Source: a virus. Taken from it: a DNA stretch of 39,187 nt. Position numbers and translations under genes: made by a program. The stretch lies in the UHGV virus genome UHGV-0864147; one strand, 5' to 3'. This document shows, in pieces, positions 1 to 39,187 of the stretch; within the stretch, counting starts at the first letter, position 1, and every line of letters starts with the position of its first letter. The notes under the pieces were generated by a model, which saw only the letters and a program-made list of their open reading frames with translations, was not told the origin of the DNA and did not search any database.

Positions 1-435
1 TTGGCTAAAAAAGATGTTACATACGACAAAGTTAAGACTGGCGCGGAAAAAGACATCCAAGAGATGAAAGAAGAGATTATTCGATCAAAGAATAGTATGG
101 GGGAATTGACTGCTGAGTTGAAAGCTAAAGATGACGAATTGAGATCCGCCAGTGCTCAGTTAGCAGCTCTAAATCATTCATTAAAAGAGATATCGGAAAC
201 TCTTGGAAGAATGAATGAGGCATATAAGACCCTCCAAAATGATTTCGACGAATACAAACTCAAATACCCTGAAAAATCTCAAATAAAAAGCCTTGCACTT
301 GGCAACGGCCAAACAATTAGCAACTTTTTGGAGCAACACAACTTATCCGGATTAAAATCTGGTAAGCCAAACGTTTTTAATAACTTTGGTGTTCTATCTG
401 GATTATCAGGTTTCGAGGATAAAAATAAAGACTAA
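1..435 (+). CDS. C-terminal part of AT-rich moron ORF (predicted coiled-coil); likely continues from 38804..39187 if the genome is circular
   Basis: Open frame from window base 1 with stop at 433-435; heptad-like charged sequence; low GC relative to neighbours; frame is continuous with ORF at window end. Confidence 0.4.
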   Translation: MAKKDVTYDKVKTGAEKDIQEMKEEIIRSKNSMGELTAELKAKDDELRSASAQLAALNHSLKEISETLGRMNEAYKTLQNDFDEYKLKYPEKSQIKSLALGNGQTISNFLEQHNLSGLKSGKPNVFNNFGVLSGLSGFEDKNKD

Positions 436-1907
436 GCATATGGATCGTACTCGGTAAGCGCCTTGCCTTGCTGGTTCTGCTGCCCGGGAAGTCGCAGGCG
501 CTTTGACACCGGGAAAGCAAACGTCAGCAGTAGCGCATCGCCTTTACCAGGCGAACGCCCAAGCCGCTCCTTGATATCTTCCTTCGGTTCGATAACGATT
601 TTACCGTCCACTCGAACTTTGTACTCTGCCGCCGACAGATCGTCCGCTGTTTCCTGGTCATCCAGCATCCCGCCCAGCCTCAGCCATGTCTTGCATGAGT
701 TGAACATCTCCCCACGCTTGTTGAGCATCTGCGGGTCAGTAGACGCGCCACCGAACGGAACAAGTTGCCATGTACGACCCCAGCCGTCACCGATTGACTT
801 CAAACCGGTTCCGTAACCGAAGTCGATGAACACCGCGTCAGCCTGATACTGGTCTTCAAAGTCAGCGATACGCTTCGCCATAATCAGATCGTCGGTAGTC
901 TTGTTGCCAGTCCACAGCACCTTACTGTGTAGCCCCTGCCGCAGGTATATCACCGCGTCATCAACGCCTGAATATGCCGGGTCAACACCGATTATCACCG
1001 GAGCATGCGCCACCTGCGCAGCGGTTACCACCCGTTTCATTGCCTCATCAGTAAGACCGGTAGGGATAAACTGCAATTCAGATGCATCAGGGAATATGCC
1101 GCGCACACGGATTTTAACGAAGTCGCTGTCTTCCCCGTAGTCATCAACCCATTTCTGCAACTGCTGTTTGTTAGTACCTTCCACCGTCCGGCTGTCAATC
1201 TGCGCAGTTTTCCAGCGGTGTTTGTATTTGCGGAAACATTCGCGAAAACGCCCGGTATTACGTGTAGGGTTTCCGAACGCCACCCAGATAATCTCAGTGT
1301 CTTCGTCCGTAAGCGCACCCTCAGCAACTTCCCACACCAGATCCGCAATGTTCGACGCTTCATCGAATACCACGATGATGCGTTTACGCTCGTTGTGTAG
1401 TCCGGCGAATGCCTCAGTGTTGTGCTCAGACCAGGGGATTGCGTCAGCTCGCCACCGCTTGTCGTGCCCAGGATCATTGCTGTACATCGCAGTAGCGGTA
1501 CAGGTAAACCAGTCTTTCGTGATAGCAAGGTTCGACCACTTGATAATTTCCGGCCAGGTCTTCGTTCGTAGCTGGTTGTCGGTGTTGGCGGTCACCACGA
1601 CCTTACAATCCTCGCAAGTGGACATGCCCCAGTTGATCAGCATTGAGATGAATGCGGATTTACCAATACCGTGACCAGAAGCGCGTGCCAGCATAAGCGG
1701 CTGATAGCGCGTCTCTGGATTCTGCAGGTGATCACGTATCTCTCGGAACGCATCGGCCTGCCACTGACGTGGACCGGTAGCATGTGCCAGTTCAGTCCCC
1801 TCTTCCCCCCAAGGGAACGCATAGAGGGCATAGCCAAGCGGATCGTGAGTGAACCCTGCAATATCTTCGATTAACTGCTCTTCAGGAGATAACGCTGCAT
1901 CTGTCAC
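432..1907 (-). CDS. terL: terminase large subunit
   Basis: 491 aa; Walker A-like GHGIGKS, acidic VVFDEAS motif; immediately downstream of small subunit gene with 4-bp overlap. Confidence 0.85.
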   Translation of the reverse strand: MTDAALSPEEQLIEDIAGFTHDPLGYALYAFPWGEEGTELAHATGPRQWQADAFREIRDHLQNPETRYQPLMLARASGHGIGKSAFISMLINWGMSTCEDCKVVVTANTDNQLRTKTWPEIIKWSNLAITKDWFTCTATAMYSNDPGHDKRWRADAIPWSEHNTEAFAGLHNERKRIIVVFDEASNIADLVWEVAEGALTDEDTEIIWVAFGNPTRNTGRFRECFRKYKHRWKTAQIDSRTVEGTNKQQLQKWVDDYGEDSDFVKIRVRGIFPDASELQFIPTGLTDEAMKRVVTAAQVAHAPVIIGVDPAYSGVDDAVIYLRQGLHSKVLWTGNKTTDDLIMAKRIADFEDQYQADAVFIDFGYGTGLKSIGDGWGRTWQLVPFGGASTDPQMLNKRGEMFNSCKTWLRLGGMLDDQETADDLSAAEYKVRVDGKIVIEPKEDIKERLGRSPGKGDALLLTFAFPVSKRLRLPGQQNQQGKALTEYDPYA

Positions 1908-2536
1908 TGATTACCATCCTGACGTTCTTTGAGTCGCTTCCTGGCTGCCGCTATGCGATCAGCAATTGTCACATTCACATTAACATCCAGGCGCTCTTTG
2001 AACGCGTTAACGTCGACGTGCTTACCGATGAGCTCGAGGTTTTTCACCTTGTCGGGCCATTTCACCTTCTTCAGGATATGCTCGACATCCTCAACAGAGA
2101 GATCCGCCTCGCCATTCTCTTTTTGCAGAGAAGCCTGGGTCGTCTTGATGGTAGCGATATCCATAGCACTGAGAGAGGTACGCCAGACCTTCGGCCATTC
2201 AGCGATCGGCTTCATCCCGCCGTCATCGTTCAGGATATCCAGCACGTCCATCTGGTCGATTTCCACCAGGCGCAGCAGGACATAATCAGCACTGACGCGC
2301 AGGCGCTTGTTGCGCTCCTCCATCAGCTCGGCAATCCGTTTTTGAATGCGTTCATCGCGCATCATGACACTGGCTTTAACTGCCGCTGTATTTGGAGAGA
2401 ATCCTGCGTTAATCGCTGCCTGAGTCTGGTTTTCAGGCGTTTTGATGTATGACTGGCAATAAGCCTCCTGCATTGCTGTTAGTGGCTTAAATTGCGTTGA
2501 TTTGCGTTTATAGGTTTTAGGTTCAGCAGGCATCAT
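1904..2536 (-). CDS. terS: terminase small subunit
   Basis: Translation contains AINAGFSPNTAAVKAS typical of small terminase DNA-binding domain; track ORF starts at TTG 2614, ATG at 2534-2536 preferred (GGTGG upstream). Confidence 0.65.
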   Translation of the reverse strand: MMPAEPKTYKRKSTQFKPLTAMQEAYCQSYIKTPENQTQAAINAGFSPNTAAVKASVMMRDERIQKRIAELMEERNKRLRVSADYVLLRLVEIDQMDVLDILNDDGGMKPIAEWPKVWRTSLSAMDIATIKTTQASLQKENGEADLSVEDVEHILKKVKWPDKVKNLELIGKHVDVNAFKERLDVNVNVTIADRIAAARKRLKERQDGNQ

Positions 2537-2568
2537 AACCACCGTGGTAATAGTTACCGTTGTGGTAA
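2536..2568. promoter_or_regulatory. tandem TTACC-N5-GGTAA-type sites in terS leader
   Basis: Sites 2536-2550 (TAACC/GGTAA) and 2554-2568 (perfect). Confidence 0.4.
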
Positions 2569-2578
2569 TAGTACCATG

Positions 2579-2605
2579 CAAAATAAAGCCGCCATAGTTG
2601 GCGGC
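2579..2605 (-). terminator. intrinsic terminator-like hairpin upstream of terS
   Basis: GCCGCC AACTAT GGCGGC followed by TTTATTTTG on minus strand. Confidence 0.5.
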
Positions 2606-2646
2606 AGTATTCAAAACCCATCAAATTCATCATGCATAATCTACTC

Positions 2647-2658
2647 GTGACATGTCAC
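2647..2658. repeat. 12-bp perfect palindrome GTGACATGTCAC (copy 1)
   Basis: Identical to copy at 21599-21610; overlaps a minus-strand stop codon. Confidence 0.6.
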
Positions 2659-3002
2659 ACTATTAATTTCGTTTCATGCCAGCCTTTAGTCACCCAGCAT
2701 TGCGAGTCACCATTACACGGGCATGAATTAACTGGAACTCTCTCGCCGCACTTACCGCAACGTTTTCTGCTGATCGATTTTATACGCCCGCGCACACGTG
2801 CATCATCCTGGCGGATCAGCAGCGCGATGTACTCGGCCATTTCATAGGGATCGCGACCAGGGCGCCGGGCGGCGCAGTTCCGCGCCAGCATTTCCTGCTC
2901 CTGCTTATCCAGCACCAGTTCAATTTTGCGCTCACCGGCGGCGGACTGCCGAGCGCGCTGCGCGGCTTTGCGTTCTGCGGGGGATTTAGCCACGAATCGC
3001 AC
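2655..3002 (-). CDS. hypothetical Cys-rich protein (CGKCG...CPCNG zinc-ribbon-like C-terminus), candidate late-gene regulator
   Basis: 115 aa ORF directly upstream of terminator plus terS; GTG start overlapping stop of upstream small ORF. Confidence 0.4.
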   Translation of the reverse strand: MRFVAKSPAERKAAQRARQSAAGERKIELVLDKQEQEMLARNCAARRPGRDPYEMAEYIALLIRQDDARVRGRIKSISRKRCGKCGERVPVNSCPCNGDSQCWVTKGWHETKLIV

Positions 3003-19609: not shown

Positions 19610-19877
19610 ATTTACATCGCACTCCTCTTGTGCCATAGTAATCGGGCACTGGCAAAATCCAGTGCCGGGATTGGTCTCCCGGATTACTACAGAGGCACAT
19701 ATGCCGCATAAGCGGTTTTTTTTATGTGTAAAGCGCACCTATTCTATGGTGGGCTGTGTGGGGGCACCGAAAGGTGCGCCGGGTTCCTTTGTAGCCGGTA
19801 AGACCAACTCTGCACAGTTCACCACCATCTGATTGGTCTCAGCGGTGGTGATTAACCTAACTACAAAGGTGATCGCC
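19610..19877 (+). ncRNA. structured leader / candidate regulatory RNA upstream of ant
   Basis: Hairpins at 19646-19665, 19665-19682, 19704-19715 plus U8, 19764-19777 (GAAA loop), 19819-19851; CCTTTGTAG (19786-19794) complementary to ant SD region (19861-19869). Confidence 0.3.
19704..19723 (+). terminator. weak terminator/attenuator in ant leader
   Basis: CCGC ATAA GCGG followed by eight T. Confidence 0.35.
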
Positions 19878-21413: not shown

Positions 21414-21575
21414 ATGAAAAAAGCATTTGCTGCACTGTTCGTTTTGTTGTCTCTGGTAGCTTCAACTCAGGCTTTTGCCGGTCGTTGTCAGCACGACAGC
21501 GATACTGCCGCTGACGGCTCCCGCTGCGGTGGGCGTTCTGCGGATTCCCGCCCGGGTGGCGGTGGCATTCGTTAA
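21414..21575 (+). CDS. small secreted peptide (signal peptide MKKAFAALFVLLSLVASTQAFA)
   Basis: 53 aa from ATG 21414; classic signal peptide; Gly/Asp-rich mature region. Confidence 0.35.
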   Translation: MKKAFAALFVLLSLVASTQAFAGRCQHDSDTAADGSRCGGRSADSRPGGGGIR

Positions 21576-21580
21576 AAACA

Positions 21581-21598
21581 AGGCCGCGAAAGCGGCCT
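21581..21598 (-). terminator. terminator after small membrane protein gene
   Basis: AGGCCGC GAAA GCGGCCT; U-tract on minus strand. Confidence 0.5.
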
Positions 21599-21610
21599 GT
21601 GACATGTCAC
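21599..21610. repeat. 12-bp perfect palindrome GTGACATGTCAC (copy 2)
   Basis: Identical to copy at 2647-2658; overlaps a minus-strand stop codon and abuts terminator hairpin. Confidence 0.6.
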
Positions 21611-21903
21611 GTCCCTTTTCTGAATGATAGCCATTCGAAAAATGATGACATTCCACCGCAGACAACAGCAAAGATGATCCCACCAAAGAAGAGAATGCCA
21701 GCCTGCCACCACTCCCACCGCCATACATCCACAGCGCCAACCATACCAACAATCGCTCCAACAAATGGAATATAGCTCACGATGAAAGCAATGGGGGCTG
21801 CAATTATCCAGTGCAATCCCCACCATGATTCAAGCCCAGCCATAATTGCTGCCAACTGAAAAAGACCAACGACGATATAAACAATGAATCCTATAGCTTG
21901 CAT
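21607..21903 (-). CDS. small integral membrane protein
   Basis: 98 aa, 3 hydrophobic segments, AGGTGG upstream of ATG. Confidence 0.45.
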   Translation of the reverse strand: MQAIGFIVYIVVGLFQLAAIMAGLESWWGLHWIIAAPIAFIVSYIPFVGAIVGMVGAVDVWRWEWWQAGILFFGGIIFAVVCGGMSSFFEWLSFRKGT

Positions 21904-38504: not shown

Positions 38505-38581
38505 GTGGCATTAGCTCAGTTGGACAGAGCAACCGCCTTCTAAGCGGTTGGTCGCAGGTTCGAATCCTGCATGCCACGCCA
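38505..38581 (+). tRNA. tRNA-Arg (anticodon UCU)
   Basis: 77 nt cloverleaf: acceptor GTGGCAT/ATGCCAC, D-arm GCTC..GAGC, anticodon stem ACCGC/GCGGT with loop CTTCTAA, T-arm GCAGG TTCGAAT CCTGC, encoded CCA. Confidence 0.85.
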
Positions 38582-38623
38582 GAATCACGCCTAAGGACCG
38601 TGATGCCAGAAGTTCCAGGTGCT

Positions 38624-38665
38624 TGGCGGTGATGGTTTCCCTTGAAGGACTATCACCGCCCTTTT
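38624..38665 (+). terminator. terminator downstream of tRNA
   Basis: GGCGGTGAT 18-nt loop ATCACCGCC followed by CTTTTT. Confidence 0.55.
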
Positions 38666-38744
38666 TACAGCAGGACGCCATTGCGATGACTTCATGCTGT
38701 AAACCCGTACAGCCACGGAAGGCATAACTCATTGCTTCCAGTTC

Positions 38745-38768
38745 GCCCGGTTCGCCGGGCATTTTTTT
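38745..38768 (+). terminator. intrinsic terminator
   Basis: GCCCGG TTCG CCGGGC followed by ATTTTTTT. Confidence 0.7.
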
Positions 38769-38784
38769 GCTTGATGACCGCAAA

Positions 38785-38802
38785 TTACCTTAAAGGTATA
38801 AT
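38785..38802. promoter_or_regulatory. TTACC-N5-GGTAT site overlapping TATAAT hexamer and SD of moron ORF
   Basis: 9/10 arm match; AAGGT within site sits 6 nt before ATG 38804. Confidence 0.4.
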
Positions 38803-38803
38803 C

Positions 38804-39187
38804 ATGAAAAACTTCAAGGTAATTAGCATGTTTGAATCGTTTAAAGAGCTGTTTTTATCTACTGCCAATACTGCCGTGAATCGAGCCAAAAACCCTGTGC
38901 TTGGTGCTTTTGTTATGTCCTGGTGCGCCTTCAACTGGAAATCAATTCTTTATCTATTTTTTAGCAAATCAAACATAATAGATAAAATTTCATATATCTC
39001 AGATAACAGCACATGGAAAACTGTTATGTTTTATCCATGCTTATCTGTAATTGCTATCTGCTGCCTATTACCATGGGTAAACAATATCATTAACGTATGG
39101 CAAGCAAAGCCTCTTGATAATAATCACTCAATCGAAAATCACCTGAAGGCAAGAAAAATCCAGCGTGAAACCAGACTGCAGAGGTTA
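38804..39187 (+). CDS. N-terminal part of AT-rich moron ORF (two predicted TM helices), open to window end
   Basis: ATG 38804 with AAGGT SD; 128 codons without stop to base 39187; in frame with ORF at 1..435. Confidence 0.4.
   Translation, partial: MKNFKVISMFESFKELFLSTANTAVNRAKNPVLGAFVMSWCAFNWKSILYLFFSKSNIIDKISYISDNSTWKTVMFYPCLSVIAICCLLPWVNNIINVWQAKPLDNNHSIENHLKARKIQRETRLQRL

What the first reader, a model, noticed from the sequence alone, without database searches (positions are those of the whole stretch)
2647..2658. Identical 12-bp perfect palindrome GTGACATGTCAC at two distant loci
The same palindrome occurs at 2647-2658 and 21599-21610, each time overlapping the stop codon of a minus-strand gene and lying at an operon boundary (start of the late/terminase operon; end of the structural operon next to a terminator). 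Chance expectation for a repeated specific 12-mer here is far below 0.01, so it is a candidate regulator or recombinase recognition site.
Basis: seen in the sequence. Interest (0 to 1): 0.45.

Follow-up and report, generated by a model that had tools for sequence, protein, structure and literature searches.

The report
Conserved matS-like protein-binding palindrome in phage
The repeated 12-base palindrome is real and is one copy-set of a motif (GTGAC-NN-GTCAC) that travels through at least five unrelated kinds of temperate phage together with one small uncharacterised DNA-binding protein gene, so it is most likely that protein's docking site, and it strikingly resembles the host chromosome's matS site.

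Summary
Observation confirmed: GTGACATGTCAC occurs exactly at 2647-2658 and 21599-21610. Each copy overlaps a minus-strand TGA stop in the same register and lies beside an intrinsic terminator. Within the window alone this is only modestly improbable (p about 0.03 for any repeated 12-bp palindrome).

The comparative evidence is decisive. The window is an epsilon15/phiV10-like (Uetakevirus) genome. The 12-mer is invariant at up to three junctions in relatives, while the flanks are unrelated cargo.

The gene whose stop codon it overlaps (2655-3002, minus strand; PHROG 536, no Pfam) has 30-45%-identical homologues in N15-like, P2-like, Mu-like and Vibrio/Photobacterium phages. All carry GTGAC-N2-GTCAC 1-4 times: 29 sites against 0.35 expected in 13 sequences, and essentially no other spacing. 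One copy usually sits at that gene's own 3' end. Matched phages lacking the gene (P2, PY54, BcepC6B) have none.

The protein models as a basic helix, a ribbon-helix-helix and a zinc ribbon. Its best long structural match is MatP bound to matS. matS (GTGAC-RNY-GTCAC) has the same half-sites with one more spacer base.

Best reading: operator of a phage "mini-MatP-like" RHH protein. Its function (operon-junction insulator or repressor versus DNA organiser) remains inferred.

The parts
2647..2658 (.). Palindrome copy A (GTGACATGTCAC). It overlaps the TGA stop (2657..2655) of the gp49-family gene and lies upstream of a terminator and of terS.
   Evidence: It is conserved at the same place in epsilon15, SPN1S, TL-2011b, ZX5, PAS61, phiv142-3, EC.W1-9 and 78 of 80 IMG/VR loci. 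This junction is present in 633 of 5426 complete E. coli genomes.
21599..21610 (.). Palindrome copy C. It overlaps the TGA stop (21609..21607) of the last late-operon ORF and abuts a bidirectional terminator hairpin between convergent genes.
   Evidence: It is conserved in relatives with five unrelated upstream flanks. Homology breakpoints between relatives fall here.
2655..3002 (-). gp49-family gene (epsilon15 gp49 / phiV10 p55 / N15 gp46 family; likely real start GTG at 2993). It is predicted to encode a basic helix, a ribbon-helix-helix and a Cys-rich zinc ribbon, and is the proposed binder of the palindrome.
2579..2605 (-). Intrinsic terminator (GCCGCCAACTATGGCGGC plus TTTATTTTG) between the gp49-family gene and terS.
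21572..21598 (-). Intrinsic terminator (AGGCCGCTTTCGCGGCCT plus TGTTTTT) immediately after copy C. An A-run on the other side makes it bidirectional.
   Evidence: phiV10 and epsilon15 annotate the equivalent terminator.
21607..21903 (-). Last ORF of the structural operon (98 aa, PHROG 3075, weak holin-like hit). Its stop codon lies inside copy C.
1904..2533 (-). Terminase small subunit gene (start inferred from relatives), the first late gene downstream of copy A.
   Evidence: Pfam Terminase_2, E = 2.2e-27. Annotation of relatives.
2553..2568 (.). Prophage-repressor operator-like site (TTACCACAACGGTAAC on the minus strand) just upstream of terS. It is distinct from the palindrome.
   Evidence: It matches the ATTACC-N5-GGTAAT repressor sites annotated in the epsilon15 record, one of them at the same position.
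2611..2637 (-). Mini-ORF MHDEFDGF* between copy A and the terminator. Its status is uncertain and it is not conserved in epsilon15 or SPN1S.
   Evidence: A paralogous MKYEFDGF* lies beside site B in some relatives.

Best explanation
The palindrome is the cognate double-stranded DNA binding site of the small protein encoded at 2655-3002 (minus strand). That protein belongs to the epsilon15 gp49 / N15 gp46 family.

The functional motif is two inverted 5-bp half-sites, GTGAC and GTCAC, separated by exactly 2 unconstrained base pairs. This is what a symmetric dimer would read. The protein is predicted to be a conserved basic helix followed by a ribbon-helix-helix dimerisation and DNA-binding domain and a zinc ribbon. 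This is the same helix-then-strand arrangement (alpha4 + beta1) with which host MatP reads matS. matS has the same half-sites one base pair further apart.

Gene and site form a cassette, with one site embedded at the gene's own 3' end. That cassette has moved between at least five unrelated temperate-phage architectures.

Shown here: conservation, the exact spacing, co-occurrence with the gene and absence without it, and purifying selection on the DNA motif even inside coding regions.

Inferred here: that this particular protein is the binder, and what binding does. My preferred function is as follows. In this Uetakevirus the protein sits on sites at operon junctions: the early operon to terminase junction, the end of the structural operon beside convergent-gene terminators, and in relatives the end of terL. 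There it acts as an orientation-independent transcriptional roadblock or insulator, and probably as an autoregulator. It would limit read-through between early, late and moron transcription units. In other phages it would damp expression of genes that contain or follow a site (repA, transposase A, terS).
For: (1) The 12-mer is exact at homologous junctions in epsilon15, phiV10, SPN1S, TL-2011b, ZX5, PAS61, phiv142-3 and EC.W1-9, although the flanks differ completely. There are at least 7 different cargos after site B, 4 after site A and 5 before site C.

(2) Distant homologues of the adjacent gene (30-45% identity) occur in several other phage types. These are N15 and phiKO2, an N15-like contig, Yersinia and Serratia P2-like phages, Morganella and Providencia Uetakevirus-like prophages, Vibrio K233, a Photobacterium prophage and Mu-like phages. 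All of them carry GTGAC-N2-GTCAC.

(3) Spacing is specific. The count is 29 sites at N2 against 0.35 expected in 13 sequences. Spacings N0-N8 otherwise give zero, except one N3 site. One-mismatch variants occur at chance level.

(4) There are matched negatives. P2, BcepC6B and the N15-like PY54 lack the gene (local tblastn) and have 0 sites.

(5) In Mu-like phages the three sites show 0/12, 1/12 (a central base) and 0/12 variable positions. Their 36-nt flanks show 5-30 variable positions out of 36, including inside the transposase coding sequence.

(6) The central dinucleotide varies freely between lineages (AT, GC, TG, AC, AG, AA, CC, CG) and need not be symmetric. This fits half-site recognition by a dimer.

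(7) The site's position at the 3' end of the gene is conserved across the family. It overlaps the stop codon, or is coding (VTGH) where the protein is longer.

(9) The literature gives matS as GTGACRNYGTCAC and says MatP reads it with alpha4 and beta1 in the major groove.

(10) P2-like phages have two sites 32-33 bp apart, about three helical turns, as in cooperative operators.
Against: There is no binding experiment, so the assignment of the binder rests on co-occurrence and predicted fold.

Sequence tests for relationship to MatP are negative.

Half-sites do not vary across the family, so there is no protein-site covariation to exploit.

One homologue (L072) has no site within 6 kb, and one prophage (L051) has deleted site A. 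The window itself lacks site B. Individual sites are therefore dispensable.

Site contexts are heterogeneous: beside terminators, inside genes, or 10-19 nt before start codons. No single regulatory logic is demonstrated. N15, P2-like and Mu-like phages have their own late regulators (Q, Ogr, Mor), so the protein is not a universal late activator.
Confidence: 0.6

Rival explanations
1. The sites are bound by a host nucleoid protein rather than the phage protein. One candidate is MatP, whose matS has identical half-sites with a 3-bp spacer. The other is SlmA, whose site is the 12-bp palindrome GTGAGTACTCAC with identical outer 4 bp. Binding would give the phage or prophage DNA Ter-like or nucleoid-occlusion-like behaviour.
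For: The half-sites are identical to matS, and the length and outer bases are identical to the SlmA site. Every host of these phages (Enterobacterales, Vibrionaceae) belongs to the lineages I recall as carrying MatP (for the hosts; the MatP distribution is from my own knowledge). One Vibrio phage has a true matS-consensus 13-mer.
Against: The spacing is strictly 2 bp, never the 3 bp of matS (29 versus 1). True matS is avoided in 500 prophages. Positions 5-8 differ from the SlmA consensus and the centre is unconstrained. A host-factor site has no reason to be physically locked to the 3' end of one phage gene across five phage types, nor to be missing from PY54, P2 and BcepC6B, which lack that gene. 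Photorhabdus MatP prefers different half-sites, whereas the phage half-sites never change.
Confidence: 0.12
2. The element works in RNA. It would be a conserved 3'-UTR or leader motif next to terminators or Shine-Dalgarno sequences. It might act as a protein-bound translational operator, a processing site or a seed, possibly bound by the same protein.
For: In the window and its relatives the motif lies just 5' of terminator hairpins in a transcript. In Vibrio, Photobacterium, N15 and Morganella phages it lies 10-19 nt before start codons.
Against: The motif is orientation-free with respect to transcription. At site B it follows the terL terminator, and at site C it precedes the terminator. A 5+5 stem with a 2-nt loop cannot form. 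Predicted RNA structures are weak and differ between the two copies. Perfect dyad symmetry with a free centre is the signature of dimer-on-duplex recognition. There is no Rfam family at either site. The predicted fold is that of duplex-DNA binders.
Confidence: 0.1
3. The palindrome is primarily a recombination site or junction for exchange of modules and morons. It would act either as a target of a site-specific enzyme or as a microhomology island used by the phage RecET-type recombination genes.
For: Variable cargo begins 2-7 nt from the palindrome at all three Uetakevirus sites. BLAST homology between relatives breaks at the palindrome or its terminator. One relative shows a short segment in inverted orientation beside site B compared with site A.
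Against: No dedicated recombinase co-occurs with the site. Cassettes are not flanked by two copies. Sites inside repA and the transposase gene, and within the gp49-family coding sequence, are not module junctions. Junction coincidence is expected for any conserved functional island between variable regions.
Confidence: 0.07
4. The repeat is a chance duplication with no function.
For: Within the window alone the probability of some repeated 12-bp palindrome is about 3%.
Against: The motif is exactly conserved across genera and phage types, shows about 80-fold enrichment at one spacing only, and shows no variation at the 10 specified positions amid variable flanks.
Confidence: 0.01

Closest known systems
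MatP / matS (Ter macrodomain organiser of E. coli and relatives)
   Same: The half-sites are identical (GTGAC ... GTCAC). Both are palindromes with an unconstrained centre. Each replicon carries a few dispersed copies. The binder is predicted to use a basic helix immediately followed by an RHH strand, which is the alpha4 + beta1 mode described for MatP. The host range coincides with MatP-bearing lineages.
   Different: The spacer is 2 bp rather than 3 (12 versus 13 bp), strictly. The protein is about 112 aa, lacks the first three helices of MatP's four-helix bundle, and has a zinc ribbon instead of the C-terminal coiled coil. There is no detectable sequence homology. It is encoded by phages, and a site is locked to the gene's 3' end. 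True matS is avoided in prophages.
Ribbon-helix-helix repressors and their operators (Arc, Mnt, CopG, MetJ, TA antitoxins, ParG/omega)
   Same: It is a small dimeric protein with a predicted strand-helix-helix core. It has short symmetric sites, a site adjacent to its own gene, and paired sites about three helical turns apart in some phages.
   Different: It has an extra conserved N-terminal basic helix and a C-terminal Cys-rich zinc ribbon. The site lies at the 3' end of the gene rather than at its promoter. Further sites lie inside unrelated genes. There is no Pfam membership apart from faint RepB-RCR_reg hits in a few members.
SlmA-binding sequence (GTGAGTACTCAC)
   Same: It is a 12-bp perfect palindrome with the same outer GTGA...TCAC.
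   Different: The central four bases differ. In the phage motif positions 5 and 8 are fixed as C and G and positions 6-7 are free. SlmA is a TetR-family protein unrelated to the phage protein.
Lambdoid Q / qut / tR' late-gene antitermination module
   Same: In this window a small regulator gene ends the early operon. It is followed by a promoter-like sequence that uses GTGACA as a -35, then a terminator, then the late genes.
   Different: There is no similarity to Q proteins. The promoter-like match is weak and is absent at the other copies. N15-like phages carry both a genuine Q and this family. The sites are not confined to late promoters.

Membership tests
matS site (MatP target) | 13-bp motif GTGAC-RNY-GTCAC with a 3-bp spacer | tested here: not met
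   Both window copies and 29 of 30 family-associated sites have a 2-bp spacer. Only one Vibrio phage site has 3 bp.
matS site (MatP target) | Inverted half-sites GTGAC / GTCAC | tested here: met
   All 10 specified bases are identical in every site found.
matS site (MatP target) | Bound by host MatP, and confined to the chromosomal Ter macrodomain | not testable with these tools
   This needs EMSA or ChIP. The elements are on phage genomes. A relative integrates at guaA, which by my recollection lies outside Ter.
MatP protein family (Pfam MatP PF06303 + MatP_C PF17414) | Sequence membership in the Pfam models, or a significant profile match to MatP | tested here: not met
   None of 43 family members hits MatP models at E <= 1. 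The PDB profile search gives no MatP. hhalign probability is 0.1. Shuffle tests give p = 0.04-0.56. Genuine MatP proteins carry both domains.
MatP protein family (Pfam MatP PF06303 + MatP_C PF17414) | Four-helix bundle, RHH and C-terminal coiled coil architecture | tested here: not met
Ribbon-helix-helix (CopG/Arc/MetJ) superfamily | Strand-helix-helix fold forming an intertwined dimer | tested here: inconclusive
SlmA-binding sequence | 12-bp palindrome GTGAGTACTCAC | tested here: not met
   Only 8 of 12 bases match. The central GTAC is replaced by CATG, and the family motif has a free centre.
Lambdoid Q antiterminator module | Q-family protein (Pfam Phage_antiter_Q and relatives) acting at a late promoter followed by a terminator | tested here: not met
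   There is no Q-family hit. N15-like phages encode a separate Q beside this family.
Site-specific recombination site | A co-occurring dedicated recombinase, with recombinant junctions flanked by site copies | tested here: not met
   No recombinase is common to the five phage types. Cargo segments are bounded by one copy only.

The most novel reading that the evidence does not exclude
The gp49 family is a phage-borne 'mini-MatP'. It would be a DNA-organising protein rather than a gene regulator. By occupying matS-like sites it could manipulate host chromosome-handling machinery on phage or prophage DNA. Possible effects are unloading or blocking MukBEF-type SMC complexes where they pile up at convergent transcription units, bridging the two or three sites to fold the genome, or tethering it in the cell. 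The 1-bp shorter spacer would keep the system orthogonal to host MatP.
Probability: 0.12. Interest if true: 0.85.

Novelty: new variant of a known kind. Interest (0 to 1): 0.62.

Why it matters
If confirmed, this defines a previously undescribed and widespread protein-site pair. The junction is present in about 12% of complete E. coli genomes. Homologues occur in podo-, myo- and siphovirus-type, linear-plasmid and transposable phages of enterobacteria and vibrios.

The DNA site is a one-base-shorter version of the host's matS. That bears on two open issues. The first is how epsilon15-like phages insulate and time their early, late and moron transcription units, since no late regulator has been identified for them in the records and papers I saw. 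The second is whether phages interact with, mimic or deliberately avoid the MatP/MukBEF/SlmA chromosome-organisation systems. Earlier work reported that true matS is excluded from prophages.

It also gives annotators a concrete function and motif for PHROG 536 'transcriptional regulator' proteins.

Tried and rejected
Literature: a search for the exact 12-mer found nothing. The epsilon15 genome paper could not be retrieved. The ZX5 paper has nothing on the site.

The epsilon15 record's annotated repressor operators (ATTACC-N5-GGTAAT) are a different motif, so the palindrome is not the prophage repressor operator.

Promoter reading: GTGACA-18-CATGAT is a 9/12 match at copy A only, no better than shuffles, and is not conserved in variants where other genes follow the site.

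Rfam shows no family at either copy. RNA folds are weak and inconsistent.

Sequence homology to MatP was tested four ways and not found. My third protein-database search, with E. coli MatP as query, returned only near-identical E. coli sequences and did not help build a MatP profile.

The AFDB fold library was unavailable. Foldseek against the PDB was uninformative.

One single-protein scan found nothing.

One-mismatch variants of the motif are at chance frequency, so I did not pursue degenerate sites.

A leader-peptide or attenuation idea for the mini-ORF MHDEFDGF was dropped as a general explanation because epsilon15 and SPN1S lack it.

Full report
1. THE OBSERVATION

GTGACATGTCAC occurs exactly twice, at 2647-2658 and 21599-21610. 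The nearest other match has two mismatches.

The window is a complete, circularly permuted epsilon15/phiV10-like (Uetakevirus) genome with its late genes on the minus strand. terS and terL lie at about 2533-432. The structural operon wraps around the window end and runs down to 21607.

Both copies overlap a minus-strand TGA stop in the same register. At copy A it is the stop of ORF 2655..3002, and at copy C the stop of ORF 21607..21903.

Both copies lie close to intrinsic terminators on that strand. The hairpin at 2605-2588 is 41 nt beyond copy A, and the hairpin at 21598-21581 directly abuts copy C.

The statistic is not. The window has eight perfect 12-bp palindromes, and 11 of 400 first-order Markov simulations contained some repeated one, so p is about 0.03.

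2. CONSERVATION IN RELATIVES

In eight related genomes the 12-mer is exact at up to three homologous places:

- Site A lies at the stop of the epsilon15 gp49 / phiV10 p55 homologue, before a terminator, a repressor operator and terS.
- Site B lies just after the terL terminator, facing a convergently transcribed moron. It is absent from this window, where a different moron directly follows terL.
- Site C lies at the end of the structural operon, against a bidirectional terminator.

In 80 IMG/VR loci, 78 carry the site. One of the two exceptions is cut off at a contig end.

The flanks, by contrast, are replaced wholesale. At least seven unrelated sequences follow site B. Four follow site A, including a LexA box plus a umuD-like gene. 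Five precede site C. BLAST homology between relatives breaks at the palindrome or its terminator.

The junction around copy A is present in 633 of 5426 complete E. coli genomes.

3. WHAT IT TRAVELS WITH

The ORF ending in copy A has no match in Pfam, NCBIfam or PDB sequences. It belongs to PHROG 536, which is named 'transcriptional regulator' by annotation only.

tblastn and HMM searches found homologues at 30-45% identity in quite different temperate phages:

- the linear-plasmid phages N15 (gp46) and phiKO2, plus an N15-like contig
- P2-like Yersinia and Serratia phages
- Morganella and Providencia Uetakevirus-like prophages
- Vibrio K233 and a Photobacterium prophage
- Mu-like transposable phages, where the gene lies two genes before Mor

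Every one of them carries GTGAC-NN-GTCAC.

Across 13 such sequences there are 29 sites with a 2-bp spacer against 0.35 expected. There are none at spacers 0, 1 or 4-8, and there is a single 3-bp site. The everted arrangement and one-mismatch variants are at chance level.

The central two bases differ between lineages (AT, GC, TG, AC, AG, AA, CC, CG) and need not be symmetric.

Matched phages without the gene have no site: P2, the N15-like PY54 and the epsilon15-like BcepC6B. Absence of the gene in all three was checked by local tblastn.

In Mu-like phages the three sites have 0, 1 (a central base) and 0 variable positions out of 12. Their 36-nt flanks have 5-30 variable positions, even inside the transposase reading frame. 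The same holds for the site inside repA of N15, phiKO2 and the N15-like contig.

One site almost always sits at the 3' end of the family gene itself. It overlaps the stop codon in the same register in Uetakevirus, Yersinia P2-like and N15-like phages. It encodes VTGH where the protein is longer. In the Morganella prophage it lies 19 nt upstream of the gene.

Gene and site therefore behave as a cassette.

4. THE PROTEIN

The family alignment shows three conserved parts:

- a basic N-terminal segment (A9 E10 R11 K12 ... R16 . R18)
- a strand-helix-helix pattern
- a Cys-rich C-terminal segment (C82, C85, C102 and others)

An AlphaFold2 model (pLDDT 85) gives helix 8-21, an extended segment, helices 33-45 and 55-77, a small zinc-ribbon-like unit, and a last helix.

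5. THE MATS CONNECTION

The MatP target matS is GTGAC-RNY-GTCAC, with E. coli consensus GTGACATTGTCAC. The phage motif has the same ten specified bases with one spacer base fewer.

MatP reads matS by inserting helix alpha4 and RHH strand beta1 into the major groove. The phage protein has just such a basic helix directly before its RHH. By eye it shares a K-x3-R-A-R pattern with MatP alpha4. That last point is my inference, not a statistical result.

The SlmA site GTGAGTACTCAC is also a 12-bp palindrome with the same outer four bases.

However, all sequence tests for homology to MatP failed. The domain architecture also differs. I therefore do not file the protein in the MatP family. I say only that it plausibly works like the DNA-reading core of MatP.

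Earlier work found no true matS in 500 prophages and inferred counter-selection. The strict 2-bp spacing here may keep the phage system orthogonal to host MatP. That is speculation.

6. WHAT IT DOES

Shown: the motif is under strong selection as DNA, at one exact geometry, and is tied to one gene family.

Inferred: that the family protein binds it as a dimer.

More weakly inferred: the consequence of binding.

- In this window and its relatives the sites sit at junctions between transcription units, beside terminators. Two of the three lie between convergent genes. The site can be on either side of the hairpin.
- In Vibrio, Photobacterium, N15 and Morganella phages, sites lie 10-19 nt before start codons (terS, gene 47, the family gene itself).
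- In N15-like and Mu-like phages, sites lie inside repA and the transposase gene.
- P2-like phages have two sites about 33 bp apart.

The simplest common denominator is an orientation-independent roadblock or repressor that trims read-through and expression of neighbouring genes, including its own.

It is not a general late activator, because N15, P2-like and Mu-like phages have Q, Ogr and Mor respectively.

A MatP-like DNA-organising role cannot be excluded and would be the more novel outcome.

7. RIVALS

- Host MatP or SlmA binding is disfavoured by the strict spacing, the gene linkage and the matched negatives.
- An RNA element is disfavoured by orientation independence, an impossible 2-nt loop and weak folds.
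- A recombination site is disfavoured by the absence of a common recombinase and by sites inside genes. The palindrome does mark mosaic junctions, as any conserved island between variable cargo would.
- Chance is excluded.

8. VERDICT

The specific picture that emerges appears not to have been described. It is a matS-like 12-bp operator locked to a small RHH/zinc-ribbon protein gene that has spread through five or more temperate-phage architectures in MatP-bearing hosts. Neither the exact-motif search nor my searches of the literature on these phages found it.

I rate it a new variant of a known kind (RHH protein plus operator; MatP/matS-like). Interest is moderate to high. The binder assignment and the function are still to be tested.

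Noticed in passing
window 2611-2637 (minus strand): An eight-codon mini-ORF, MHDEFDGF*, starts 9 nt after palindrome copy A and ends 5 nt before the terminator hairpin. A similar MKYEFDGF* lies beside site B, in the opposite orientation, in some IMG/VR relatives. It is absent in epsilon15 and SPN1S. It could be a leader peptide or a remnant of a duplication or inversion.
   Followed up: partly
window 2553-2568: TTACCACAACGGTAAC (minus strand) lies just upstream of terS. It matches the ATTACC-N5-GGTAAT prophage-repressor sites annotated in the epsilon15 record at the same position. This suggests the terminase operon has its own repressor-controlled promoter.
   Followed up: partly
window 19646-19829 (+ strand): Rfam gathering-level hits to isrK (19646-19722) and C4 antisense RNA (19742-19829). 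This is a P1/P7-type immI antisense control module, presumably governing the downstream antirepressor/Bro-like gene.
   Followed up: no
window 38505-38578 (+ strand): A tRNA gene lies opposite to the late genes, between terL and the portal region. The relative phiv142-3 annotates tRNA-Arg(tct) there. A terminator and a variable moron slot follow it.
   Followed up: no
window 1-432 and 38600-39187: This genome lacks the third palindrome copy (site B) and the terL terminator that most relatives have. terL's stop is followed directly by a reverse-oriented moron encoding a roughly 260-aa protein with a membrane-like N-terminus.
   Followed up: partly
L070 and L085 (IMG/VR relatives), immediately after site A: A LexA box (TACTGT-N8-ACAGTA) and a umuD-like gene (MGFPSPAADY...) are inserted starting a few bases after the palindrome. 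In about 30 other loci a different gene (MPKIRYDLEDM...) starts 9 nt after it.
   Followed up: partly
L004 (phiV10 NC_007804.2), record ends: The phiV10 record is cut inside site A (...GTGA | CATGTTAC...). Read across the ends, the site has one mismatch (GTGACATGTTAC). This is either a real variant or an end-of-record error.
   Followed up: no
L051 and L072 (IMG/VR): L051 has a 60-nt deletion between TGAA microhomologies. It removes the last codons of the gp49-family gene, site A and the mini-ORF. L072 has a homologue ending ...KLSA* with no palindrome within 6 kb.
   Followed up: partly
L091 (Vibrio phage K233) 19491-19503: The 13-mer GTGACACCGTCAC fits the host matS consensus exactly and overlaps the stop codon of a small gene. 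It is the only 3-bp-spacer site seen among the family-bearing phages.
   Followed up: no
L108 and related Mu-like loci (L107-L126): Two GTGAC-N2-GTCAC sites lie about 440 bp apart inside the transposase A gene of Mu-like phages. They are invariant while synonymous positions around them vary.
   Followed up: partly
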